Source: Bacilli bacterium
GTDB lineage: Bacteria; Bacillota_I; Bacilli_A; RFN20; DUOF01
NCBI GenBank assembly: GCA_045118975.1
Contig: JBGVCT010000009.1
Location: forward strand, 278 to 64,277
Direction of reading: 5' to 3'
DNA length: 64,000 bases
The notes under the pieces were generated by a model, which did not search any database, was not told the DNA's origin, and saw only the letters and a list, made by a program, of their open reading frames with translations. Shown in pieces: positions 51,767 to 61,423 of the stretch. Each line of letters starts with the position of its first letter. Positions within the stretch are counted from its first letter, which is position 1. Position numbers and translations under genes: made by a program.

Positions 51767-53443
51767 TTATTCAACTCCAATGATATAACTATATACAGGT
51801 TGATCTCCTTTTTTAACATCTATTTCTAAATCATATTTATCGTTTAAATAATCCACAATAGCACTAGTTTCGCTATCATGAGCATCATTTCCAGCAATTA
51901 AAGTAACAAGTTCGCTGTCCTCATCAATCATAGTCTTTAATAGTTCAATTGTAGCAGTAACTTTATCTTCTTTACATGTCACAATATTCTTACCATTTAA
52001 TCCCATGAAATAATTTGCCTTAATCTCTAATCCATCAATTGTTGTATCCTTAATAGCAAATGTAACTTGACCAGATTTAACTGAAGTTAAAGCTTCAGAC
52101 ATTTGTTCAAAGTTCTCATCAGGATTACACTCTGGATTAAACATCATACAAGCAACTAGTCCTTGAGGAATAGTTTTAGTAGGAATCACTTTACAATTAA
52201 CTCCTTCTACTACTTCTCCAGCTTGAGTAGCAGCCATAACTATATTTGAGTTATTAGGAAGAATGAATACATTCTTTGCATTTACTTTTTCAATAGCGTG
52301 AACAAAATCTTCAGTAGATGGGTTCATAGTTTGACCACCACTTACTACTTCACTAACTCTTAAATCTTTAAACATTTGGTTAATACCCTCACCTGCACTA
52401 ACCGCAATAATAGCATACTCTTCTTTTGGTGTCTCTGTTGCTACAGGAGCAGCATTTTCTTGAGCTTGCTCTTGTAAGTTAGAGTGTTGAAGTTGCATGT
52501 TTTCAACTTTCAATGTTATAAACTCACCAAATTGTTGAGCGTAGTTAAATATATTACCAGGTTTTAAAGTATGAATATGAACTTTAACAATATCATCATC
52601 TTGTACTACAACAATTGAATTACCATGGTTTTCTAATACTGTAGAGAATCTATGTTGATTGAAATTCTTCTTTCCTTCCTTTTCAGGAGATAATTGCATT
52701 ACAAATTCAGTACAATATCCAAATTCTTGGTTTTCAATTTTACTTTGAGCACTACCAGCAGCAATATTACTATCAGCTGTTGCAACTTCCATAGTAGCAG
52801 TAGCTTGCTCTCTTTGAATAACCTTATTCTCTAATGCACTTGAGAATCCATCTAATACCTTTAATAATCCAGCTCCACCAGAGTCTACAACTCCAACTTC
52901 TTTTAATACAGGAAGTAATTCTGGAGTTCTATTTAAAGAAGCGTTAGCTTCCTTAATTAAATACTTCATACACTCTTCAATAGAAATTGGCTTTTCTTTA
53001 CTATCAACATAATCTTTTAAAGCTACACTAGATTCTCTAATAACTGTTAAAATAGTACCTTCAATTGGTTTCATAACAGCTTTATAAGCAACATCCTTAG
53101 CACTTATAAAAGCATCAGCAAAATCATAACAATCTACTTCTTTTTTACCTTCAAGTCCCATTGCAAATCCTCTAAAAATTTGCGATAAAATAACACCAGA
53201 GTTTCCTCTAGCACCCATTAAAAGACCCTTAGAAAAAGCTCTAGCTACTTCATATATATTGTCATTAGTACTATTTAAAACTTCTTTAGAACCACTAGTC
53301 ATAGTTAAGTTCATATTTGTACCAGTATCTCCATCAGGAACTGGGAATACATTCAAAGCATCTATTTGTGGATAACAGTTAAACAAGTTATTTGCACCAG
53401 AGATAATCATCTGCTTTAAATGATGTCCATTAATCTTATTCAT
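51767..53443 (-). CDS. fakA: DAK2 domain fatty acid kinase subunit A (YloV/FakA)
   Basis: LNVFPVPDGDTGTNM, GARGNSGVILSQ, EGTILTV, GYCTEF, GGQTMNPST. Confidence 0.94.
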   Translation of the reverse strand: MNKINGHHLKQMIISGANNLFNCYPQIDALNVFPVPDGDTGTNMNLTMTSGSKEVLNSTNDNIYEVARAFSKGLLMGARGNSGVILSQIFRGFAMGLEGKKEVDCYDFADAFISAKDVAYKAVMKPIEGTILTVIRESSVALKDYVDSKEKPISIEECMKYLIKEANASLNRTPELLPVLKEVGVVDSGGAGLLKVLDGFSSALENKVIQREQATATMEVATADSNIAAGSAQSKIENQEFGYCTEFVMQLSPEKEGKKNFNQHRFSTVLENHGNSIVVVQDDDIVKVHIHTLKPGNIFNYAQQFGEFITLKVENMQLQHSNLQEQAQENAAPVATETPKEEYAIIAVSAGEGINQMFKDLRVSEVVSGGQTMNPSTEDFVHAIEKVNAKNVFILPNNSNIVMAATQAGEVVEGVNCKVIPTKTIPQGLVACMMFNPECNPDENFEQMSEALTSVKSGQVTFAIKDTTIDGLEIKANYFMGLNGKNIVTCKEDKVTATIELLKTMIDEDSELVTLIAGNDAHDSETSAIVDYLNDKYDLEIDVKKGDQPVYSYIIGVE

Positions 53444-53466
53444 TTTTATTTTCCTCCGATAAACTC

Positions 53467-53823
53467 TTAAACGCTTTTAATACCTTTTACGAATACGTTT
53501 ATTGATTTGAATTTTATATCAAGTGTTTTTTCTAACACATACTTTACTTTCTTTTGTACTTCACTTACAACTTCAGTAATCTTTAAGCCATAAGCTACCA
53601 TAATATACATTTCTACTTCGATACCATTTTTACTTTCTCTAGCAAATACTCCCTTCTTATAATTGTCTAATCTAAGAAGTTCAGCAATACTAGCCTTAAG
53701 TCCTGTCTTAGGTACCATACCAACTACACCATAACATTCGGTTGCAGCATTACCAGCTATCGCAGCGATTGCCTCCATACTAATAGAGATATTTCCCTTA
53801 GTATTGTTCTTTTCAATCATCAT
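53467..53823 (-). CDS. Asp23/Gls24 family protein (YloU)
   Basis: IAGNAATECYGVVGM, YGLKITEV..EVQKKVKY; upstream of yloV/fakA. Confidence 0.92.
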   Translation of the reverse strand: MMIEKNNTKGNISISMEAIAAIAGNAATECYGVVGMVPKTGLKASIAELLRLDNYKKGVFARESKNGIEVEMYIMVAYGLKITEVVSEVQKKVKYVLEKTLDIKFKSINVFVKGIKSV

Positions 53824-53895
53824 ATTACTTTCACCTCATCATATCAATTATACAAAAGGCGTTAAAATATTGCAAACTTTTAACCCTTTTATATA

Positions 53896-54282
53896 CTATC
53901 TCCTATTACTATATTCATAACTAATATCGATACCAGACAAATCATGTTTTTCTCTTAGAACTTTATAAAGTTCTGTTTCATATCCTTCTTTTTCAATTTT
54001 GTAGCCATTAGATTCATAAAATCTTTTAACAACTAAGCCATCTTCATCTTCTGGATAAAACTTTCCTTCAACAACCACTTTTCTCATCTTATCTGCTTCG
54101 TTTTCAAATATTTTAAGTAGTGTTTTTCCAATACCTTTTCCACGATATGCCTTATCAACTTTGATTTTATTTAGCCACACACTTCTTTTGTCAAATTTGT
54201 AATTGATAAACCCTATACAAGTATTACCATTAAGACATTCAATCTGCTCATAGTCATCAATGTGTTTAACAACAAACCTCAT
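53896..54282 (-). CDS. GNAT family N-acetyltransferase
   Basis: V...YRGKGIGKTLL acetyl-CoA loop, FYESNGY. Confidence 0.88.
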   Translation of the reverse strand: MRFVVKHIDDYEQIECLNGNTCIGFINYKFDKRSVWLNKIKVDKAYRGKGIGKTLLKIFENEADKMRKVVVEGKFYPEDEDGLVVKRFYESNGYKIEKEGYETELYKVLREKHDLSGIDISYEYSNRR

Positions 54283-54346
54283 AAAATCACCCGCAATATA
54301 TTAGCACACTTATAAAACTTAGGCAATACAGGAGTTTTCTAATACT

Positions 54347-54400
54347 TTAATCCTTTAAATCGAGGATTAATTAGTATATAATATTAATTAATCAGAGGTG
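54347..54400 (+). promoter_or_regulatory. Promoter region with two overlapping inverted repeats
   Basis: TTAATCCT-N8-AGGATTAA (54347-54370); GATTAATTAGTAT-ata-ATATTAATTAATC (54365-54393) covering TATAAT at 54377-54382; SD GAGGTG at 54395-54400. Confidence 0.6.
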
Positions 54401-54406
54401 TTGAAG

Positions 54407-56437
54407 ATGAATAGAAATTCTTTGCAAATAGAATTAGATAAGCTTAGAACCTACCTAAGCAAACTAAAAAGGCAAAAATTAGGGACTAATGATTATGTTA
54501 CCCACAGTTACATTTTAACTGGTATGATAGAAACAATTTATTCCCTTGTATCAACAGGTGCTTATTATGCTGTTGATGGTTCTTTGGAAGAACTTTTTGA
54601 TGCTATAACTCAAGCTAGAAACCTAGCAGTTCATTATGCTGAAGCAGACAACTACGCTAAAATGCTTGAAGTAGCTCAAAACATTGTTTTAAAGACCCCT
54701 AGAGAATTCGAAGACACAATCGCTGATGATTTAGACAAATATATAACTCAAGACTCTGATGACTATTTACTAGTATATAAAACAGATATTATTTCTATCA
54801 AAGATAGCGATGATATCTACAAAGATTCATATCTAATAGAAAATATCAGAACAAAAGAAAAGATTTATGTACCTAAAGAGCATCTTGTAATTATAGACAA
54901 TAGGCATTCAGGAGGCACATCTTTCTTAGTAAGACTAAGCGATGATGCAAAAGTATACTATAAAGCAAATGATACAACTCCTACTACTATTGTTTCATTA
55001 AAAGAACTATATAAAAATCATAAGTTAGATACAGCCTATAGAGGTAAACCTAAAATCATAAAGTTTGATAACATCATCTCTAAAATGGCTAAATTAATAA
55101 AACAAGATCCATACGAGGATAAACATTTTTCATATACATATGATAAAAAAACATTTCGTTCTAAAGCATATAATGTATTAAATGACTTCTTACAAAGAAG
55201 AGTAATCAATGAACGTTTTGTCTTTGGTCCTTTCAAGGTTGGTAGTTTTGCAGAAGATGCCAAAAAGAAAACAATTGCTATCCCTAGTGTAGATAAGAAA
55301 GAGCTTTTAAACCATGCATCACTAAAAGATATGTTCTACATTGAATTATTTTTAAAAGAGTATGGGGCATTCAAAGAAAAAATAAGAAGAATGGAAGGCA
55401 AAAGTGAAGAAGAAATAATGTATGCTAAACAAGCATTATTGATAGAGTTATTCAAAAATGGACCTGCCTATTTATCTGAACACTTAATAAAGCATAATTC
55501 GGATTTTGCTTCTCTTTATTATGATTTTAAAAAAGAGAGAAACATTCTTTCTCACAATCCTTTAAACGATGAAGAAAAAGCTAATATTATTGATAATTTA
55601 GAAAAATATAGTCAAGCCCTATATGAAGTGTTACAACCTTCATATTCCCTTTATACAAAAGATAAAAGGAAATACCCGTATGCTTATCTAAATGGGGCTA
55701 TACCAACTAGTGATGGAAAGTTTATTCATAACAAATTAACTGAATACCATGTATATAAGCATACTGGAGAAACTATGGTTGTTGGTGGAGTTAAATACTT
55801 AAGATTAAATTATAAAGGTCATCCTAATTTGTATATTAAAGTAGATGGTTCTTTATATGTATATAACTATTTAACTGAGTCTTCATATGAATGTATCGCT
55901 CCTAAATCAGGAACACAAATTGTAGAAATAGATAAAAACGGGGTTGTTAAACCAAGTAAGGTTAATCTAGTAGAGGGTAAAGATCCTATTTTAGTAGACT
56001 TTGATCAAGATGCTATATTCCAAGCATATAACTACTTAAAATCTTATCCACAAGCAGACTCTAGTTATTTTGAATCTAAAAGTGGGGTTAAGTGTGCTCC
56101 AATTATTACTATCTATAGTGCTTATGGACCTATGTATAGTGATAGACTAAAGAATTTCATTTTAAGAAGAAATAACCAACACTTCTTACCAAGAGAATTA
56201 TTATCTTGTTGTAAGTGTAAATTTTATAATGACTTAAATAAGCCAATTGAAATTCTAGATAAAAACAATAATATTATTGCTACAATTTATTATGGACACG
56301 TAGCAAAAAATGGTATAATCACTCAAGTCTTAACTGATGGAACTACCCAAGCAATAGAACATGGTGACCCAGTTTCTAGAAGTTTAGACACAAGTGAAAT
56401 AATCACTGAAGTTAAACTAGAAAGGAATAAAAGATGA
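54407..56437 (+). CDS. Hypothetical protein with two predicted HEPN (DUF86/HepT-like) RNase domains
   Basis: RNLAVH (54617-54634) and RNILSH (55538-55555), each at the end of an all-helical ~110-aa segment; start re-assigned to ATG 54407. Confidence 0.65.
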   Translation: MNRNSLQIELDKLRTYLSKLKRQKLGTNDYVTHSYILTGMIETIYSLVSTGAYYAVDGSLEELFDAITQARNLAVHYAEADNYAKMLEVAQNIVLKTPREFEDTIADDLDKYITQDSDDYLLVYKTDIISIKDSDDIYKDSYLIENIRTKEKIYVPKEHLVIIDNRHSGGTSFLVRLSDDAKVYYKANDTTPTTIVSLKELYKNHKLDTAYRGKPKIIKFDNIISKMAKLIKQDPYEDKHFSYTYDKKTFRSKAYNVLNDFLQRRVINERFVFGPFKVGSFAEDAKKKTIAIPSVDKKELLNHASLKDMFYIELFLKEYGAFKEKIRRMEGKSEEEIMYAKQALLIELFKNGPAYLSEHLIKHNSDFASLYYDFKKERNILSHNPLNDEEKANIIDNLEKYSQALYEVLQPSYSLYTKDKRKYPYAYLNGAIPTSDGKFIHNKLTEYHVYKHTGETMVVGGVKYLRLNYKGHPNLYIKVDGSLYVYNYLTESSYECIAPKSGTQIVEIDKNGVVKPSKVNLVEGKDPILVDFDQDAIFQAYNYLKSYPQADSSYFESKSGVKCAPIITIYSAYGPMYSDRLKNFILRRNNQHFLPRELLSCCKCKFYNDLNKPIEILDKNNNIIATIYYGHVAKNGIITQVLTDGTTQAIEHGDPVSRSLDTSEIITEVKLERNKR

Positions 56438-56700
56438 AAAAAGAAATAGAATTAGCATATACTAGATTACCAAAATTACTTAATACATATGGTTTTTCTA
56501 AAGCATATATAAAAGTGGATCATGAATCTACTAGAATTGTTTTATGTGAGCAAAAAAAACCACTTTCATTACAAGAGTGGTGTGATTTAGAAACTTTAAT
56601 AAAATTAGATATAGCAAGAAATGTAAGTATCATAGGTAAGGAGCAAGAAGATAACTATGATGGATATTTACTTATAAAAGGAAGTGAAGACAATGCCTAA
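56434..56700 (+). CDS. Degenerate MNT (minimal nucleotidyltransferase)-like protein
   Basis: LLNTYGFSKAYI...LSLQEWCDLETLIKLDIARNVSII follows the MntA pattern but lacks GS...DxD; ATGA overlap with upstream gene. Confidence 0.55.
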   Translation: MKKEIELAYTRLPKLLNTYGFSKAYIKVDHESTRIVLCEQKKPLSLQEWCDLETLIKLDIARNVSIIGKEQEDNYDGYLLIKGSEDNA

Positions 56701-57046
56701 TCAAGATTTTAATTTATTAGTAGCAGCTTTAAATAACTTAGAACATTTAAAAACTCTTGCTTCAAGTCCTGTATTATCTTCAAAAGAAGAATTCGCTTGC
56801 AATGATACATATATTAAAATGGGAGTAGGAGCCCTTGTAGAACTTGTAAATATCACTAATAAAATAAGTGCTACAACAGTACTAGTTAGCCCATATTTAA
56901 CAAAAGAGTTACCTATGCTAAATAGATACAAAGAATGTATCTTTAACCCAGATAACTCTGTTAATGCTTATAAATTATATGATTTCCTTACTCTAGAATT
57001 AAAAGGTCTAGAAGAGGAAGTAAGAAGATTAATTGTTAAAAGTTAA
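56693..57046 (+). CDS. DUF86/HepT-like helical protein lacking the RxxxxH motif
   Basis: D..LL..AL....SKEEF..ND....G...L.EL....NKIS.......P........SVN...LY......LKGL follows the DUF86 pattern; YKECIFN sits where RNxxxH is expected. Confidence 0.55.
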   Translation: MPNQDFNLLVAALNNLEHLKTLASSPVLSSKEEFACNDTYIKMGVGALVELVNITNKISATTVLVSPYLTKELPMLNRYKECIFNPDNSVNAYKLYDFLTLELKGLEEEVRRLIVKS

Positions 57047-57749
57047 TTATTAACTCAAGTACTTTTTCTGAAACAATAACATTAAGTTTAGAAGAATACA
57101 TTCCTATAATCTTATTTTGGTCATTTATAAAAATAGTACCACCATTAAGATTCATATCATTTAAACAATAAGACTTATAAGTAGTATCAAAATATGTCAT
57201 GGTACTACTTTTTATATTGCTTTCAATAGTAGTTTTATGTATCCAAGAAACATTATCTACTTTAGCAACCACTTCACTATATTCTCCAAGGGAAGCAACA
57301 CTTCCATAATAATCCCAATTACAAGTAAATATTGCTAATCCTGTAGTTATATCAACTTCATATAAATATGCACTGTATTCATTAGCGTATGAATCAATAA
57401 GTACATAACTAGCACTACTTGTTTGTTTTATTGCATTATAATCAGCCAAAATATAAGCATCAAATCCACTTATTCCTATTATAATGCCATTACTATATTT
57501 CTTATTAGAACCATAATAAGAACTTCTTATTACTACAGTAGAATCTAAGGTTTCAGTAGTAAGTTCATTATAGAAATCCATAATATCTCTAGCCTTAGCC
57601 AATTCTTCATTTTCTTCCTTTAATTCTTTAACTTCTTTTTCTAATAAATTAACTCTATTGATCAAAGAATTTTTATCAAAAGAGAAACTACAAGCACCTA
57701 AAAACAAAGTTAAAACAAGAGTAAAAACAGCAAGCAATTTCTTATTCAT
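57036..57749 (-). CDS. Lipoprotein, catalytically degenerate trypsin-like paralog
   Basis: Lipobox LGAC, coiled coil, trypsin-like strands (SNGIII, YILADYNAI, GLAIF, NGG.IFINDQNKIIGM) without His/Asp/Ser. Confidence 0.6.
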   Translation of the reverse strand: MNKKLLAVFTLVLTLFLGACSFSFDKNSLINRVNLLEKEVKELKEENEELAKARDIMDFYNELTTETLDSTVVIRSSYYGSNKKYSNGIIIGISGFDAYILADYNAIKQTSSASYVLIDSYANEYSAYLYEVDITTGLAIFTCNWDYYGSVASLGEYSEVVAKVDNVSWIHKTTIESNIKSSTMTYFDTTYKSYCLNDMNLNGGTIFINDQNKIIGMYSSKLNVIVSEKVLELIINF

Positions 57750-58587
57750 ATAAATCACCCACTTCAAAATCATTTAGTGTTAAAAACTCTATTATCTTAC
57801 TAACACTACTACCAGCACCATAAGCAAATTCTCCACCTATAGTAAATCCATATGTGACAATTCCTACTATTTTATAATCATAATTAATAAGCATACCACC
57901 ACTATTACCATTATTAGTAGGAGCATCATAATAGATACATTCATATTCAATATTTGATTCTTTATCAGCACAATCTTCACACTCTACAAAATCATATCTT
58001 AATACTTCTCCAAAAGTAATAACATTCCTTTTACCAAGTGGTTGACCAATAGCAATTATATTTTCTCTAACTTTAGGATCCTCACTTGCAAACTCAGCTA
58101 CTCTTAAAGTCTCATATGCCTTATTAAAAGATAATAAGGCCATATCATATTCAGGATCATAAAACTCTACTCTAGCTACATATTCATTATTTAAATAATC
58201 ATATATGTAATAATTAGTCCTACTAGGATTAAGTGTATATATAACATGATTATTAGTTAATACATAATATCTACCTGCATCTTCTTTAATAATAGTACCA
58301 CTACCACTACTAACACTAGTACCAGTAAAAGTACCTCTAGACTCACTAGTAATCATAACATTAGATTTAATAACATCTAAATTTATCTTGTTAATAAGAG
58401 ATATCATCTCTTCACTAGATAAATTACCTGTTTTATCTTTTAAAGATTTATACTCTTCATTTAATTCTTCAAACTCACTAACAAGAGAATTATGTAATCT
58501 ATTAAGTGAGATTAAAGAGTCTTTATTATCACATGCACAAAAAAGAACAGAAAACACGCATACTATTAACGTAACCACCTTTTTCAT
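57742..58587 (-). CDS. Lipoprotein trypsin-like serine protease (S1C/HtrA-like, no PDZ)
   Basis: Lipobox FCAC; GSGTII, LTNNHV, YDMALL, AIGQPLG, GNSGG; start re-assigned to MKKVV. Confidence 0.9.
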   Translation of the reverse strand: MKKVVTLIVCVFSVLFCACDNKDSLISLNRLHNSLVSEFEELNEEYKSLKDKTGNLSSEEMISLINKINLDVIKSNVMITSESRGTFTGTSVSSGSGTIIKEDAGRYYVLTNNHVIYTLNPSRTNYYIYDYLNNEYVARVEFYDPEYDMALLSFNKAYETLRVAEFASEDPKVRENIIAIGQPLGKRNVITFGEVLRYDFVECEDCADKESNIEYECIYYDAPTNNGNSGGMLINYDYKIVGIVTYGFTIGGEFAYGAGSSVSKIIEFLTLNDFEVGDLYE

Positions 58588-58709
58588 GCTATCACCTCTA
58601 TTAATAATTATAGTCTCAAACCAGACATTATTTCCACCCATTAATAGAATTAAGAAATAAAATAAAACTATTTTTTATAAAAAAGATTAAAAAATGATGT
58701 AAAAACCTC

Positions 58710-58738
58710 TTGACTATGACTTCTCTTTGTATTATTAT
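58710..58738 (+). promoter_or_regulatory. sigmaA promoter of tRNA-Gly
   Basis: TTGACT-N17-TATTAT. Confidence 0.7.
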
Positions 58739-58778
58739 TATCACGCATCAGTTGTCAACCAACTGATTTAATATACAT

Positions 58779-58852
58779 GCAGATGTAGTTCAATGGTAGA
58801 ACACAACCTTGCCAAGGTTGCTACGGGGGTCCGATTCCCCTCATCTGCTCCA
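58779..58852 (+). tRNA. tRNA-Gly (GCC)
   Basis: Acceptor GCAGATG/CATCTGC, U discriminator plus encoded CCA, anticodon arm CAACC-tt-GCC-aa-GGTTG, T arm GGGGG-TCCGATT-CCCCT. Confidence 0.95.
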
Positions 58853-58863
58853 ATAAAATACTC

Positions 58864-58888
58864 AAGAACACCTTAGGGTGTTCTTTTT
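58864..58888 (+). terminator. Terminator after tRNA-Gly
   Basis: AAGAACACC-ttag-GGTGTTCTT-TTT. Confidence 0.85.
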
Positions 58889-59049
58889 CATTATTCATAA
58901 CTGTCTATAAAGTCAAATAAACGATATTTTTCTACAAATCCGGGTAATTTTATATTAATAAAATTCAAAACATTGTTGCCATTAAACAATATTTATTGAT
59001 AATAAATATAAATTATTCTATAATTAGTAAGTCAAAAGGAGTGAATACA

Positions 59050-60546
59050 ATGGAAGAAGTAGAATTAGACTTAACAGAACAAGAAGCAATAAGAAGGGCT
59101 AAACTTGATAAATATAAAGAAAAAGGCATCGATCCATTTGGAGAAAAATATGATAGAAACGCATGGAGTGAAGATTTAAAAGCTGAATATACTGGTTTGA
59201 CTCATGAAGAGTTAGAAGAGAAACATGTAGTTGTAAAAGTAGCTGGTAGAATCATGACTTTAAGAGATATGGGTAAAGTTGCATTTATGCATATTCAAGA
59301 TAAAAAAGGAAAGATTCAAATTTATTTAAGAAAAGATACTTTAGGTGAGGAAACTTGGGAAGTATTCAAATTAGCTGATATTGGAGATATCGTTGGTATT
59401 GAAGGTCAACTAATGGTTACTAAAACTGGAGAACTTTCAATCAAAGCTATTACATATACTCACTTAACTAAAGCTTTAAGACCATTACCTGAAAAGTTCC
59501 ATGGTCTTCAAGATAAGGAAGAAGCTAGAAGAAGAAGATATGTAGACTTAATTATGAATGAAGATAGTAAGAGAATTGCTTTTGCTAGACCAAGAATTAT
59601 AAGAGGTATCCAAAGATATCTAGACAACTTAGGTTTTGTAGAAGTAGAAACTCCTATCCTTGATCATATTCTAGGTGGAGCTAGCGCTAGACCATTCGTT
59701 ACTCATCACAATGCTTTAGATATGGACTTCTATCTAAGAATTGCCACTGAATTACACTTAAAGAGATTAATCGTTGGTGGTATGGAAGGCGTATATGAGA
59801 TTGGTAGATTATTCAGAAATGAAGGTATGGATGCTACTCATAACCCAGAATTTACTACAGTAGAAATTTATGAAGCATATGGTGATTTATCATCTATGAT
59901 GGATTTAGCTGAAGGATTAATTAGAACTCTATCTAGAGATATCAGAGGTAGCGAAGTATTTGAATATCAAGGTAATACTCTAGATATGTCAAAACCATTT
60001 AAGAGACTTAGAATGGTTGATGGTATAAAAGAAATCACAGGTATCGATTTTGCATCTATCACTGATGTAAATGATGCAATCAAGTTAGCTGAAGAACATG
60101 GTATAGAACTTGGTGAACACGAAAAGAATTATGGACATATTGTTAACTTATTCTTTGAAAAGTATGTAGAAGAAACTCTAATTCAACCTACATTCTTATA
60201 TGAGTATCCAATTGAGGTATCTCCACTTACTAAGAAAAATAAAGTTGATCCTAGATACACAGATAGATTCGAATTATTTATCAATGGTAAAGAATTTGGT
60301 AATGCTTATACTGAGTTAAATGACCCAATTGATCAAAAAGAAAGATTCATCAACCAATTAAAAGAAAAAGAATTAGGTAATGATGAAGCTAATGAAATGG
60401 ATATTGACTTTGTAGAATCTCTAGAATATGGTATGCCTCCTACTGGTGGTATTGGTATTGGTATAGATAGATTAGTTATGTTATTAACTAACACTGATAC
60501 TATTAGAGATGTATTATTATTCCCTCACATGAAGAATAATAAATAA
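59050..60546 (+). CDS. lysS: Lysine--tRNA ligase (class II)
   Basis: VAGRIM, KALRPLPEKFHGL, YLRIATEL.LKRL, FRNEG, HNPEFT, GMPPTGG.GIGIDRL; start at MEEV after AAGGAG. Confidence 0.98.
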   Translation: MEEVELDLTEQEAIRRAKLDKYKEKGIDPFGEKYDRNAWSEDLKAEYTGLTHEELEEKHVVVKVAGRIMTLRDMGKVAFMHIQDKKGKIQIYLRKDTLGEETWEVFKLADIGDIVGIEGQLMVTKTGELSIKAITYTHLTKALRPLPEKFHGLQDKEEARRRRYVDLIMNEDSKRIAFARPRIIRGIQRYLDNLGFVEVETPILDHILGGASARPFVTHHNALDMDFYLRIATELHLKRLIVGGMEGVYEIGRLFRNEGMDATHNPEFTTVEIYEAYGDLSSMMDLAEGLIRTLSRDIRGSEVFEYQGNTLDMSKPFKRLRMVDGIKEITGIDFASITDVNDAIKLAEEHGIELGEHEKNYGHIVNLFFEKYVEETLIQPTFLYEYPIEVSPLTKKNKVDPRYTDRFELFINGKEFGNAYTELNDPIDQKERFINQLKEKELGNDEANEMDIDFVESLEYGMPPTGGIGIGIDRLVMLLTNTDTIRDVLLFPHMKNNK

Positions 60547-60598: not shown

Positions 60599-61423
60599 CT
60601 ATCTTCTTGAAACTTTTGTTCTTTCAGCGCTAGCTTTTGATATTGGCATAATTGTAAATTGTTCTACAGGAGTATAATTACTCTTTAACATTCTTACTTG
60701 AGCCTTATCTTTAGATAGTAAGAAGGCACCATTTGGGTTTGCTTTCAATTCATCAGTTAAATCATAACTTACTTCATCAATTGTAGTAACAAGACCCATA
60801 TTACCATCTTCATCTCTTACTTCTGTTGCATAGCATACATAGTAACTTACTTTGTCATCTTGAACTTTAGCTTTACTAACATTTAAGATTATTCTTTCAT
60901 CAGTAGTAGCTTGTGCTGTAGCAACATTTTCGTTTTCTGATGATGTTACAAGTTCTGCTTCTTTTATAATCTCAGTAAGTTTTTCTAATAGCCCCTTAGT
61001 ATCTAGGTCTTCAATATCATTCTTTTCAATATATTGAAGTACATCATAATATTGTTGCTCACTTACTTCATATGCACATGAGAAGAAATCAATATCATCA
61101 CCCATCATATTCATTGCAGAACCAGTGAATTTAAATAAATACTCACTGTCATTGTTTGTGTACCAATCAAAATATGTTACATCTGCACTTTGATATTCCA
61201 TGTGTGTAGCAATCAAATCATTAAGTTGAGCTTTTGCTTCATTTGTTGCCTTATCAGCAAATATACCTGCTACAGCTACTCCACCAACTAAAAGAAGAGT
61301 AACTGCACCAATGGCAATTGCTGCTGCAGGGTCCATATCTTTACCCAATAAATATCCAGCTGCGAATCCGCCACCGAATCCGCTGCCTCCGCCGCTTCCG
61401 CCGCCGCCACTAGCTAATCCCAT
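60599..61423 (-). CDS. Hypothetical membrane-anchored protein with Gly-rich N-terminus
   Basis: SD AGAGGTG; GGGGSGGGSGFGGGF then a TM helix, acidic ectodomain. Confidence 0.65.
   Translation of the reverse strand: MGLASGGGGSGGGSGFGGGFAAGYLLGKDMDPAAAIAIGAVTLLLVGGVAVAGIFADKATNEAKAQLNDLIATHMEYQSADVTYFDWYTNNDSEYLFKFTGSAMNMMGDDIDFFSCAYEVSEQQYYDVLQYIEKNDIEDLDTKGLLEKLTEIIKEAELVTSSENENVATAQATTDERIILNVSKAKVQDDKVSYYVCYATEVRDEDGNMGLVTTIDEVSYDLTDELKANPNGAFLLSKDKAQVRMLKSNYTPVEQFTIMPISKASAERTKVSRR

What the first reader, a model, noticed from the sequence alone, without database searches (positions are those of the whole stretch)
54407..57046. Three-gene system: double-HEPN effector, dead MNT and dead HEPN
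Seen: three overlapping, translationally coupled genes. The first (~676 aa) carries two R-N-x3-H motifs (RNLAVH, RNILSH), each closing a helical ~110-aa block. The second (88 aa) follows the MntA sequence pattern but has no GS-x10-DxD. The third (~117 aa) follows DUF86/HepT but has YKECIFN in place of RNxxxH. Established: HEPN RNases need two RxxxxH motifs to form one active site, and in HepT-MntA systems MNT neutralises the toxin by AMPylation. Inference: the big protein is a single-chain, self-dimerised HEPN RNase with accessory sensor domains. It would be restrained not by AMPylation but by a pseudo-MNT/pseudo-HEPN decoy complex. That would be a tripartite TA or abortive-infection defence architecture I do not recognise from described systems.
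Basis: partly seen in the sequence, partly recalled or inferred. Interest (0 to 1): 0.88.

Follow-up and report, generated by a model that had tools for sequence, protein, structure and literature searches.

The report
Tandem-RxxxxH protein with dead MntA/HepT pair
A three-gene operon found only in one family of small-genome gut Bacilli joins a large protein carrying two invariant HEPN-type RNase motifs to a pair of small proteins that look like a toxin-antitoxin pair stripped of its catalytic residues, an arrangement not found in the catalogues and papers searched here.

Summary
Three overlapping genes (A 676 aa, B 88 aa, C 117 aa) lie at 54407-57046. All 12 loci with an A homologue, in 9 genomes, carry the same triad.

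In a 14-sequence alignment reaching 16% identity, only 11 columns of A are invariant. Four of them are the R and H of the two RxxxxH motifs. Each motif ends the third helix of a four-helix block, as the HEPN definition requires.

No profile or fold search identifies A as HEPN. Pfam, NCBIfam, PADLOC and PHROGs give nothing, hhalign is at noise level, and Foldseek returns only generic helical bundles.

C is a HepT/DUF86 relative (hhalign 94%, score 47.6 against nulls of 17.9 or less). It has Lys and Asn where HepT has the catalytic Arg and His. B resembles MntA more weakly (40-47%, score 28-30 against nulls of 16.4 or less). It has the GS loop deleted and no DxD.

The triad was found in 9 of 201 genomes of the order, all in one family. 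It evolves much faster than its housekeeping neighbours.

Best reading: a tandem-HEPN-like RNase regulated through binding by a catalytically dead MntA/HepT-derived pair. The mechanism is inferred, and complex prediction gives only weak support. I rate it a new variant of a known kind.

The parts
54354..54382 (+). Promoter-like site (TTTAAA-17-TATAAT), about 25 nt upstream of gene A
   Evidence: 10 of 12 matches, but the number of such sites in the region equals the shuffle expectation, so this is weak. A TATAAT-like -10 and a strong RBS precede A at the other loci too.
54407..56437 (+). Gene A, 676 aa: large protein with two RxxxxH-bearing helical blocks and two beta-rich domains
   Evidence: No hit in Pfam, NCBIfam, PADLOC or PHROGs.
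54407..54754 (+). A block 1 (residues 1-116): helical, HEPN-like topology
   Evidence: helices 3-22, 27-49, 59-76, 80-94 and 98-113. pLDDT is below 50 for residues 51-78.
54617..54634 (+). Motif 1, R71-N-L-A-V-H76
   Evidence: R and H are invariant in 14 of 14 sequences. The motif ends the third helix.
54755..55285 (+). A middle domain (residues 117-293), beta-rich, unassigned
   Evidence: The only hit is a sub-threshold SUKH-1 match (E 0.42).
55286..55666 (+). A block 2 (residues 294-420): four-helix bundle with an insert helix, HEPN-like topology
   Evidence: pLDDT 94.3, pTM 0.86. Foldseek finds only generic bundles.
55538..55555 (+). Motif 2, R378-N-I-L-S-H383
   Evidence: R and H are invariant in 14 of 14 sequences. 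The motif ends helix 72-90 of the domain model.
55667..56434 (+). A C-terminal region (residues 421-676), beta-rich, poorly modelled, unassigned
   Evidence: pLDDT mostly below 50. D531, L598 and A625 are invariant; K451, H452 and R587 are nearly so.
56434..56700 (+). Gene B, 88 aa: MntA-like minimal nucleotidyltransferase relative lacking the GS loop and DxD
   Evidence: hhalign 40-47%, score 28-30 against nulls of 16.4 or less. No Pfam hit.
56693..57046 (+). Gene C, 117 aa: HepT/DUF86-like HEPN protein without RxxxxH
   Evidence: hhalign 89-94%, score 40-48 against nulls of 18.4 or less. Pfam's own HepT model does not detect it.
56930..56947 (+). K80-E-C-I-F-N85 of C, aligned with HepT's R-N-x-x-x-H
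   Evidence: N85 is invariant in 9 of 9 sequences but is Ser in G003.

Best explanation
The three genes form one co-inherited module.

A is most likely a metal-independent HEPN-type endoribonuclease that carries both halves of a composite active site in one chain. It has two four-helix blocks, each with an invariant RxxxxH at the end of helix 3, plus two unassigned beta-rich domains that could bind substrate or sense a signal.

B and C descend from an MntA-HepT (type VII toxin-antitoxin) pair in which both proteins have lost their catalytic residues. They therefore cannot AMPylate or cleave.

I infer that B and C act through binding. C, alone or clamped by B, would engage A and hold its nuclease in check or tune it, and release or loss of B/C would free A's RNase activity.

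Shown: gene structure, co-occurrence, motif invariance, C-HepT homology, loss of the catalytic residues, lineage restriction, and fast evolution.

Inferred: the HEPN identity of A, intramolecular pairing of the two motifs, binding of B/C to A, and a conflict role (toxin-antitoxin or abortive infection).
For: 1. Co-occurrence. The triad is present at 12 of 12 distinct A loci in 9 genomes, with overlapping or near-abutting genes.

2. Motif invariance. In 14 A sequences reaching 16-18% identity, 11 columns are invariant, and 4 of them are R71, H76, R378 and H383. The most divergent member, G003, also has RQDVIH and RNFYSH.

3. [quoted passage not shown] Block 2 folds at pLDDT 94.3 as helices 13-35 and 41-57, insert 65-70, helix 72-90 ending in R85...H90, then helix 95-126. 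Block 1 has the same order. The residue after R is N, Q, D, H or K in most sequences.

4. C versus 17 real HepT sequences: hhalign probability 89%, rising to 94% with the deeper alignment; score 40.5, then 47.6, over 89-94 columns. Reversed, cross-family and 30 column-shuffled nulls scored 18.4 or less.

5. B versus 12 real MntA sequences: probability 47% and 40%, score 30.0 and 27.9, with nulls of 16.4 or less. B precedes C with an overlap, as mntA precedes hepT.

6. Loss of the catalytic residues in B and C, seen directly in the alignments.

7. Fast evolution. Within the genus: A 67%, B 83% and C 68% identity, against RecG 90%, FakA-like 95% and Asp23 100%. Between genera at the same site: A 26%, against FakA-like 77% and Asp23 83%.

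8. Complex prediction (chains B, C and A, with A as the scored partner) gave weak support. The score was 0.39 and the best of 3 controls 0.00. That mark was reached by 58 of 80 solved complexes and 2 of 110 mismatched pairs, but at 0.60 or under by only 7 of those 80 and by both mismatches that passed. The runs agree in at least 0% of contacts and the partner's pLDDT is at least 82.

9. Eight 151-nt contigs with 0-2 mismatches, from 3 metatranscriptome runs of one study, lie on A (2), B (1) and C (5). This is a weak hint only, because DNA can be present in such libraries.
Against: - No search identifies A as HEPN. Pfam, NCBIfam, PADLOC and PHROGs gave no hit at E<=1.
- The A2 profile matched no PDB sequence at E<=10.
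- Foldseek found no match at E<=0.001 and no HEPN protein in the top 50, either for the whole-protein model or for the high-confidence block 2. The viral library gave nothing either.
- hhalign of the A blocks against HepT or Abi_2 scored 18-25, which is noise level: one reversed control reached 21.9. In the same test two true HEPN families scored only 18 against each other, so the test cannot exclude HEPN.
- Blocks 1 and 2 show no detectable similarity to each other or to C.
- Pfam's HepT model does not detect C anywhere in the genome.
- B's homology call is below 50% probability.
- The three complex-prediction runs disagree (0.57, 0.39, 0.00).
- The triad sits beside core genes (Asp23/FakA/RecG; YabP/YqfD), with no mobile-element genes seen nearby. 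It was found in 8 of 10 genomes of the family besides the window's own. That is unlike typical patchy defence islands.
- No toxicity, RNase activity or binding has been measured.
Confidence: 0.45

Rival explanations
1. A domesticated housekeeping RNA-processing or RNA-surveillance complex. A is a HEPN-type RNase, and B/C are permanent structural or substrate-selecting subunits, not an antitoxin or decoy. The module serves normal RNA metabolism in these reduced genomes.
For: The triad sits at fixed sites beside core genes, confirmed by Pfam as RecG, FakA-like, Asp23, YabP and YqfD. It was found in 8 of 10 sampled genomes of the family besides the window's own. Genus g1 keeps two copies in genomes of about 1-1.5 Mb. 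No mobile-element genes were seen in the flanks read.
Against: It evolves far faster than its neighbours: A is 26% identical between genera where Asp23 is 83%. It was not found in 190 genomes of the seven other families of the order, nor in the two g4 genomes of the same family, so it is not a general requirement. Site and phylogeny disagree: the copies at the Asp23 site in g3 group with g1's yqfC-site copies.
Confidence: 0.2
2. A is not a HEPN RNase. The conserved Arg/His pairs serve another role, such as phosphate or nucleotide binding or another catalysis, in generic four-helix bundles. The triad has a function unrelated to RNA cleavage, and B/C are relics of an MntA-HepT pair reused as adaptors.
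For: No HEPN protein appears in any profile or fold search with A. The best Foldseek matches are designed bundles and sensor four-helix bundles. RxxxxH is a short pattern.
Against: R and H of both motifs make up 4 of the 11 invariant columns. Both motifs sit at the HEPN-defining position at the end of helix 3, with a polar residue after R in most sequences. The operon partner C is itself a HEPN-family protein. The hhalign alignments, though weak, place both motifs in register with HepT's and Abi_2's RN..H.
Confidence: 0.2
3. B and C are a decayed, non-functional MntA-HepT toxin-antitoxin remnant that merely lies next to an unrelated gene A.
For: Both have lost their catalytic motifs.
Against: Both reading frames are intact, and both accompany A at 12 of 12 loci across two deep clades (A about 25% identical) and three genera. 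Conserved positions are retained, such as W49 in B and the N..YKLYD segment in C. There are 84 B-like and 66 C-like clusters at 90% identity in public data. Pseudogene remnants would not persist this way.
Confidence: 0.03
4. A is a compact Cas13-like RNA-guided nuclease.
For: Two RxxxxH-bearing helical domains sit in one chain. The Cas13an paper proposes that Cas13 arose from compact enzymes formed by fusion of two HEPN genes (passages of PMC12165695).
Against: There is no repeat array in 52000-60000 and no relevant RNA family. No Cas13 structure is among the Foldseek hits. The flanks are housekeeping genes.
Confidence: 0.02

Closest known systems
HepT-MntA (HEPN/MNT) type VII toxin-antitoxin pair (DUF86 / minimal nucleotidyltransferase)
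   Same: B then C, with overlapping genes, mirrors mntA then hepT. C matches a HepT profile at 94% hhalign probability, with the catalytic helix in register. B matches an MntA profile at 40-47%.
   Different: C has Lys/variable residues and Asn/Ser where HepT has Arg and His. In the window the AMPylated Tyr of RφxxxHxY (passage of PMC13000451) is Asp. B lacks the GS loop and DxD, so AMPylation is not possible. Pfam's HepT model does not detect C. A third, 676-aa protein always precedes the pair.
Cas13 (single-chain tandem HEPN RNases)
   Same: [quoted passage not shown]
   Different: No CRISPR array, no sequence or fold match, and a different genomic context.
AbiD/AbiF (Pfam Abi_2) abortive-infection HEPN proteins
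   Same: An RN..AH-type motif. hhalign places both A motifs on Abi_2's RN..AH.
   Different: Scores of 22-25 are at noise level (a reversed control reached 21.9). Abi_2 proteins carry a single HEPN per chain and no B/C partners. No Abi_2 match was found in the window's genome.
RnlA-RnlB / LsoA-LsoB (multidomain HEPN toxin with a small protein antitoxin)
   Same: A large multidomain HEPN toxin restrained by a small protein through binding, in an anti-phage role. I saw only the abstract of PMC8266594 in the listing; the rest is recalled.
   Different: One HEPN per chain, with the active site formed by homodimerisation, and an unrelated antitoxin. No sequence similarity was detected here.
HEPN domains without Rx4-6H that accompany nucleotidyltransferases (substrate-binding HEPN)
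   Same: C is a HEPN-family protein without the motif, next to an NTase-like protein. PMC3710099 states that the motif is lost in HEPN domains fused to NTases and is conserved in only about 83% of the DUF86 clade.
   Different: In those cases the NTase is catalytically intact. Here the NTase-like partner has also lost its catalytic residues.

Membership tests
HEPN superfamily (A blocks 1 and 2) | [quoted passage not shown] | tested here: met
   For block 2, the model has pLDDT 94.3 and the top Foldseek matches are up-and-down bundles. Block 1 shows the same helix order but at low confidence for residues 51-78. The definition is from passages of PMC3710099. These are predicted structures, not solved ones.
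HEPN superfamily (A blocks 1 and 2) | Rx4-6H at the end of helix 3, conserved, with a polar residue after R | tested here: met
   R71/H76 and R378/H383 are invariant in 14 of 14 sequences and present in G003. Both motifs end the third helix. The residue after R is N, Q, D, H or K in most sequences, but Ile in the g3 block 2 motif RIIFSH.
HEPN superfamily (A blocks 1 and 2) | Significant profile or fold match to an established HEPN family | tested here: not met
   Pfam, NCBIfam, PADLOC and PHROGs gave none. The PDB profile search gave none. hhalign against HepT and Abi_2 scored 18-25, at noise. Foldseek PDB and BFVD showed no HEPN protein. Caveat: HepT against Abi_2 itself scored only 18 in the same test.
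HEPN superfamily (A blocks 1 and 2) | Metal-independent RNase activity dependent on the R and H | not testable with these tools
   Needs biochemistry.
HepT / DUF86 (gene C) | Sequence-profile membership | tested here: inconclusive
   Pfam PF01934 gave no hit for C, for its 8 homologues, or anywhere in the genome. Profile-profile hhalign against 17 real HepT sequences gave 89-94% probability and score 40-48, against nulls of 18.4 or less. C is a remote relative, not a member by Pfam's threshold.
HepT / DUF86 (gene C) | Catalytic RxxxxH and the AMPylatable Tyr (RφxxxHxY) | tested here: not met
   K80...N85, then P86-D87, in the window. Clade II copies keep a Tyr two residues after the Asn. G003 has Ser for the Asn.
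MntA / minimal nucleotidyltransferase (gene B) | Sequence-profile membership | tested here: inconclusive
   No Pfam hit. hhalign against 12 real MntA sequences gave 40-47% probability and score 28-30, against nulls of 16.4 or less. The Atlas gave no usable hit.
MntA / minimal nucleotidyltransferase (gene B) | GSx10DxD catalytic motif | tested here: not met
   There is an 8-residue deletion where MntA has GSxAxG. The DxD columns read S-T-R in the window and are not conserved.
[quoted passage not shown] | Antitoxin neutralises the toxin by AMPylation | tested here: not met
   The residues needed for nucleotidyl transfer are absent from B, and in the window the target Tyr is absent from C. The mechanism is as in the abstracts of PMC7641770 and PMC11586414 and passages of PMC13000451.
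Cas13 / type VI CRISPR | Adjacent CRISPR array and crRNA | tested here: not met
   No array-like repeats in 52000-60000 and no relevant Rfam family.
Catalogued anti-phage defence systems (PADLOC-DB 2.0.0) | A match of any of the three proteins to a system model | tested here: not met
   0 families at E<=1 for A, B and C.

The most novel reading that the evidence does not exclude
This would be a pseudoenzyme-controlled nuclease. A former MntA-HepT toxin-antitoxin pair lost both of its enzymatic activities and was kept as a pair of decoy or regulator subunits. The dead HEPN (C) would mimic a HEPN partner and occupy or distort the dimer interface of a single-chain tandem-HEPN RNase (A), and the dead MNT (B) would clamp C. 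That would be a non-CRISPR single-chain tandem-HEPN effector gated by molecular mimicry rather than by AMPylation. It would form a tripartite conflict module that has become fixed at chromosomal sites in one family of gut Bacilli, with two diverged copies per genome in one genus.
Probability: 0.25. Interest if true: 0.8.

Novelty: new variant of a known kind. Interest (0 to 1): 0.62.

Why it matters
HEPN RNases and MNT nucleotidyltransferases form what one paper's abstract calls the predicted most abundant toxin-antitoxin module in prokaryotes (PMC7641770, listing). In the known forms the MNT is an active enzyme and each chain carries one HEPN.

If the best reading is right, this operon shows three things at once. 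It would be a single-chain, two-motif HEPN protein outside CRISPR-Cas13. It would show a toxin-antitoxin pair surviving as pseudoenzymes. And it would show a conflict-type module fixed beside core genes in reduced genomes.

It would give a tractable test of how HEPN active sites are gated by protein partners. None of the three proteins is recognised by Pfam, NCBIfam, PADLOC or PHROGs, so current annotation pipelines using those libraries would label all three hypothetical.

Tried and rejected
**Family and look-alike searches**
- Family libraries gave nothing for A, B or C: Pfam, PADLOC, NCBIfam and PHROGs. The only item was a sub-threshold SUKH-1 match in A's middle domain (E 0.42), which I do not use.
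- The ESM Atlas gave no usable hit: A's best score was 0.75, and B had none.
- PDB sequence-profile searches with A2, A3 and A4 found nothing relevant.

**Fold searches**
- Foldseek with the whole-A model (pLDDT 63) and with the block 2 model (pLDDT 94), against PDB and BFVD, found only generic helical bundles.

**hhalign on A**
- hhalign of the A blocks against HepT and Abi_2, against each other, and against C was at noise level.

**Related loci and genome surveys**
- The metagenome-contig scan for A found no relative.
- The narrow A1 profile undercounted carriers: G008 and G010 were scored negative but carry the triad. I replaced it with the A2 survey.
- Genus g4 (G005, 86% complete; G007, 97% complete) gave no match with the A2 or the C profile.

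**DNA features**
- No CRISPR array or structured RNA was found. The S15-leader hit inside gene A (24.8 bits against a gathering score of 39.5) is taken as chance.
- The palindrome TTAATCCT-N8-AGGATTAA upstream of A was considered as an operator. I rejected it because it is not conserved at the orthologous G001 locus or elsewhere.
- Terminator-like hits lie inside gene A and number no more than shuffles give.

**RNA data**
- Parts of the operon without contig cover in the RNA runs say nothing.

- Searches were coordinate slips of mine, corrected.
Full report
**1. What is there**

Three ORFs lie on the + strand at 54407-57046.
- Gene A (54407-56437, 676 aa) starts at an ATG preceded by AGAGGTG.
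- Gene B (56434-56700, 88 aa) starts inside A's stop codon, as ATGA.
- Gene C (56693-57046, 117 aa) starts 8 nt before B's stop and has its own AAGGAAG.

A promoter-like TTTAAA-17-TATAAT lies about 25 nt upstream of A. Such sites are no more frequent here than in shuffled sequence. C's end overlaps, convergently, a 245-aa ORF with no family match.

The neighbours were confirmed by Pfam. Upstream on the opposite strand are RecG, a FakA-like DAK2 protein, Asp23 and a GNAT acetyltransferase. Downstream are a Trypsin_2 protease and lysyl-tRNA synthetase. G+C is about 0.27-0.31 across the locus and both flanks, with no compositional break.

**2.

A word-indexed search of 5.8 billion proteins found 6 relatives among the 8,000 candidates scored. 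An exhaustive profile search of 1.84 billion representatives found 21, of which 7 had E<=1e-30.

I aligned 14 sequences, including distant paralogues at 16-18% identity. Only 11 columns are invariant, and four of them are R71, H76, R378 and H383.

Every locus I could read that holds an A homologue has a B-like gene (79-96 aa) and a C-like gene (109-120 aa) immediately downstream. That is 12 of 12 distinct loci in 9 genomes. They include a second, about 25%-identical triad elsewhere in the window's own genome, on contig C16 next to YabP/YqfD.

**3. Gene C is a HepT relative without the catalytic residues**

Pfam does not detect C: there was no hit for the window protein, for 8 homologues, or in a whole-genome scan with PF01934.

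I therefore fetched 17 real HepT genes and 12 adjacent MntA genes from other Bacilli and ran profile-profile comparisons with controls.
- With 9 sequences, C against HepT gave probability 89% and score 40.5 over 89 columns.
- With 65 sequences, it gave probability 94% and score 47.6 over 94 columns.
- Reversed targets, cross-family pairs and 30 column-shuffled queries scored 18.4 or less.

The alignment runs through the catalytic helix in register. HepT's R-N-x-x-x-H corresponds to K80-E-C-I-F-N85. N85 is invariant in 9 of 9 sequences but is Ser in the most divergent member. So the position is never His.

The Tyr that MntA AMPylates in HepT is the Y in RφxxxHxY (passage of PMC13000451). It is Asp in the window's C, but Tyr is retained in the other clade.

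**4. Gene B resembles MntA, less securely, and also lacks the catalytic residues**

B against MntA gave probability 47% (score 30.0, 77 columns) and then 40% (score 27.9, 66 columns) with 84 sequences. Nulls scored 16.4 or less.

The alignment shows an 8-residue deletion exactly where MntA has GSxAxG. The DxD columns hold non-conserved residues.

B precedes C with overlapping genes, which is the canonical mntA-hepT order. Taken together, I judge it likely, about 85% by inference, that B-C descend from an MntA-HepT pair. Neither can carry out the type VII chemistry.

**5. Gene A: HEPN-like by anatomy, unconfirmed by any search**

The HEPN reference analysis (passages read, PMC3710099) defines the domain as follows:
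- a four-helix core with an insert between helices 2 and 3;
- Rx4-6H at the end of helix 3;
- a residue after R that is mostly N, D or H.

Block 2 (residues 294-420), folded alone with 9 homologues, gives pLDDT 94.3 and pTM 0.86. Its helices are 13-35 and 41-57, a short insert 65-70, helix 72-90 ending in R85...H90, and helix 95-126. In the whole-protein model (pLDDT 63) block 1 shows the same order, with motif 1 ending helix 59-76, but at low local confidence. The residue after R is N, Q, D, H or K in most sequences.

Against this, nothing recognises A.
- Family libraries gave no hits, and no PDB sequence matched.
- Foldseek gave only generic helical bundles. The best E was 0.046, and no HEPN protein was in the top 50 for the whole model or for block 2. 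The viral library gave nothing.
- hhalign against HepT or 28 Abi_2 proteins placed both motifs on the families' RN..H, but scored only 18-25. One reversed control reached 21.9.

In that same test HepT against Abi_2, two true HEPN families, scored only 18. So the method cannot see inter-family HEPN relationships, and its silence is uninformative.

I put the HEPN-RNase identity of A at about 0.7. That figure rests on motif invariance, motif position, and the HEPN-family operon partner.

The middle domain (117-293) and the C-terminal domain (421-676) are beta-rich and remain unassigned.

**6. Distribution and evolution**

With the broad profile, A was found in 9 of 201 genomes of the order. That is 8 of 10 in the window's own family plus the window's genome itself, and 0 of 190 in the other seven families. 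By genus the counts are g1 2 of 2 (besides the window's own genome), g2 1 of 1, g3 5 of 5, and g4 0 of 2. The g4 genomes were also negative with the C profile, while the positive control G003 was found.

An earlier narrower profile had missed two carriers, so all such counts are floors.

B-like and C-like proteins number 84 and 66 clusters in public data. All lack a Pfam annotation and are named only 'hypothetical'.

The triad evolves much faster than its cytoplasmic neighbours.

| Comparison | A | B | C | RecG | FakA-like | Asp23 |
|---|---|---|---|---|---|---|
| Within genus g1 (G000 vs G001) | 67% | 83% | 68% | 90% | 95% | 100% |
| Between genera at the Asp23 site (G000 vs G006) | 26% | 24% | 32% | not compared | 77% | 83% |

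A maximum-likelihood tree of 20 A proteins has two deep clades with 100/100 support. The g3 copies at the Asp23 site group with g1's second (yqfC-site) copies, not with g1's own Asp23-site copies (93/94). The tree is midpoint-rooted and G003 is on a long branch.

So site and phylogeny disagree. This hints at relocation or replacement within the lineage rather than plain vertical descent.

**7. Mechanism**

Established knowledge: HEPN RNases need two RxxxxH motifs juxtaposed. In Cas13 the two domains pair within one chain, whereas other HEPN proteins typically homodimerise (passage of PMC12165695).

A has exactly two such motifs, both invariant. An intramolecular composite site is therefore the simplest reading, but it is an inference, because no coordinates were available to me.

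B and C cannot be enzymes, yet they are retained with A everywhere. So they most likely act through binding.

I ran one complex prediction with B, C and A, scoring A as the partner. It gave weak support.
- Score 0.39 (runs 0.57, 0.39, 0.00), with the best of 3 controls at 0.00.
- The mark was reached by 58 of 80 solved complexes and 2 of 110 mismatched pairs. At 0.60 or under it was reached by only 7 of those 80, and by both mismatches that passed.
- The runs agree in at least 0% of contacts, and the partner's pLDDT is at least 82.
- The control in which C was replaced also scored 0.00.

This is a hint, not evidence of binding.

Fast evolution and the TA ancestry of B/C favour a conflict role: toxin-antitoxin or abortive infection. 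Fixed sites beside core genes and family-wide retention favour domestication. I cannot decide between these.

**8. Expression**

Three metatranscriptome runs from one study hold eight 151-nt contigs with 0-2 mismatches on A (2), B (1) and C (5). DNA carry-over cannot be excluded, so this is a weak hint only.

**9. Known or new**

No PADLOC model matches.

Three full-text searches found no description of a tandem-HEPN protein outside Cas13, Las1 and Swt1-type cases, nor of an inactive MntA/HepT pair serving a third protein. The term sets were: HEPN/MNT/toxin-antitoxin/three-gene; tandem, two or dual HEPN; and HepT/MntA/tripartite/three-component/inactive/degenerate.

This covers only the held library. 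The supplementary tables of PMC12165695 and PMC3710099 were not seen.

The parts belong to known superfamilies, and the architecture was not found described in those catalogues and searches. I rate it a new variant of a known kind.

Noticed in passing
Own genome, contig C16 (locus L013: 4022-6007, 6011-6253, 6246-6575): A second, paralogous triad (661, 80 and 109 aa) is only about 25-28% identical to the window's triad. It lies directly upstream of YabP and YqfD sporulation-type genes. The same arrangement occurs in the other two g1 genomes.
   Followed up: yes
L014 7916-8443 (-); also L082 4857-5387 (-) and L081 2806-3330 (+): In genus g3 a SMI1/KNR4 (SUKH) family gene lies close to the triad, and immediately next to it in G008 (Pfam E 1.9e-8 for the L014 copy). 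SUKH proteins are usually immunity proteins of polymorphic toxin systems (recalled). A's own middle domain gave a sub-threshold SUKH-1 hit (E 0.42).
   Followed up: partly
window 57036-57773 (-) and 57742-58641 (-): Two overlapping ORFs that look like lipoproteins by my reading of the sequences. The second is a Trypsin_2 protease; the first has no family hit. Both evolve fast between species of the genus (44% and 66% identity, where RecG is 90%).
   Followed up: partly
window 58779-58849 (+): A tRNA gene (Rfam 67 bits) sits just upstream of the lysyl-tRNA synthetase gene (58996-60546).
   Followed up: no
window 54345-54368: The palindrome TTAATCCT-N8-AGGATTAA overlaps the -35 of the promoter-like site before gene A. 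It is not conserved at the orthologous locus of G001, so it is probably not an operator.
   Followed up: yes
window 60599-61423 (-): A 274-aa ORF has a Gly-rich N-terminus (GGGGSGGGSGFGGG) followed by a hydrophobic stretch. I did not examine it.
   Followed up: no
The genome search: Method note. A profile built from 6 close homologues scored two genomes (G008, G010) as lacking the family although both carry full triads. Counts from narrow profiles are floors for fast-evolving families.
   Followed up: yes
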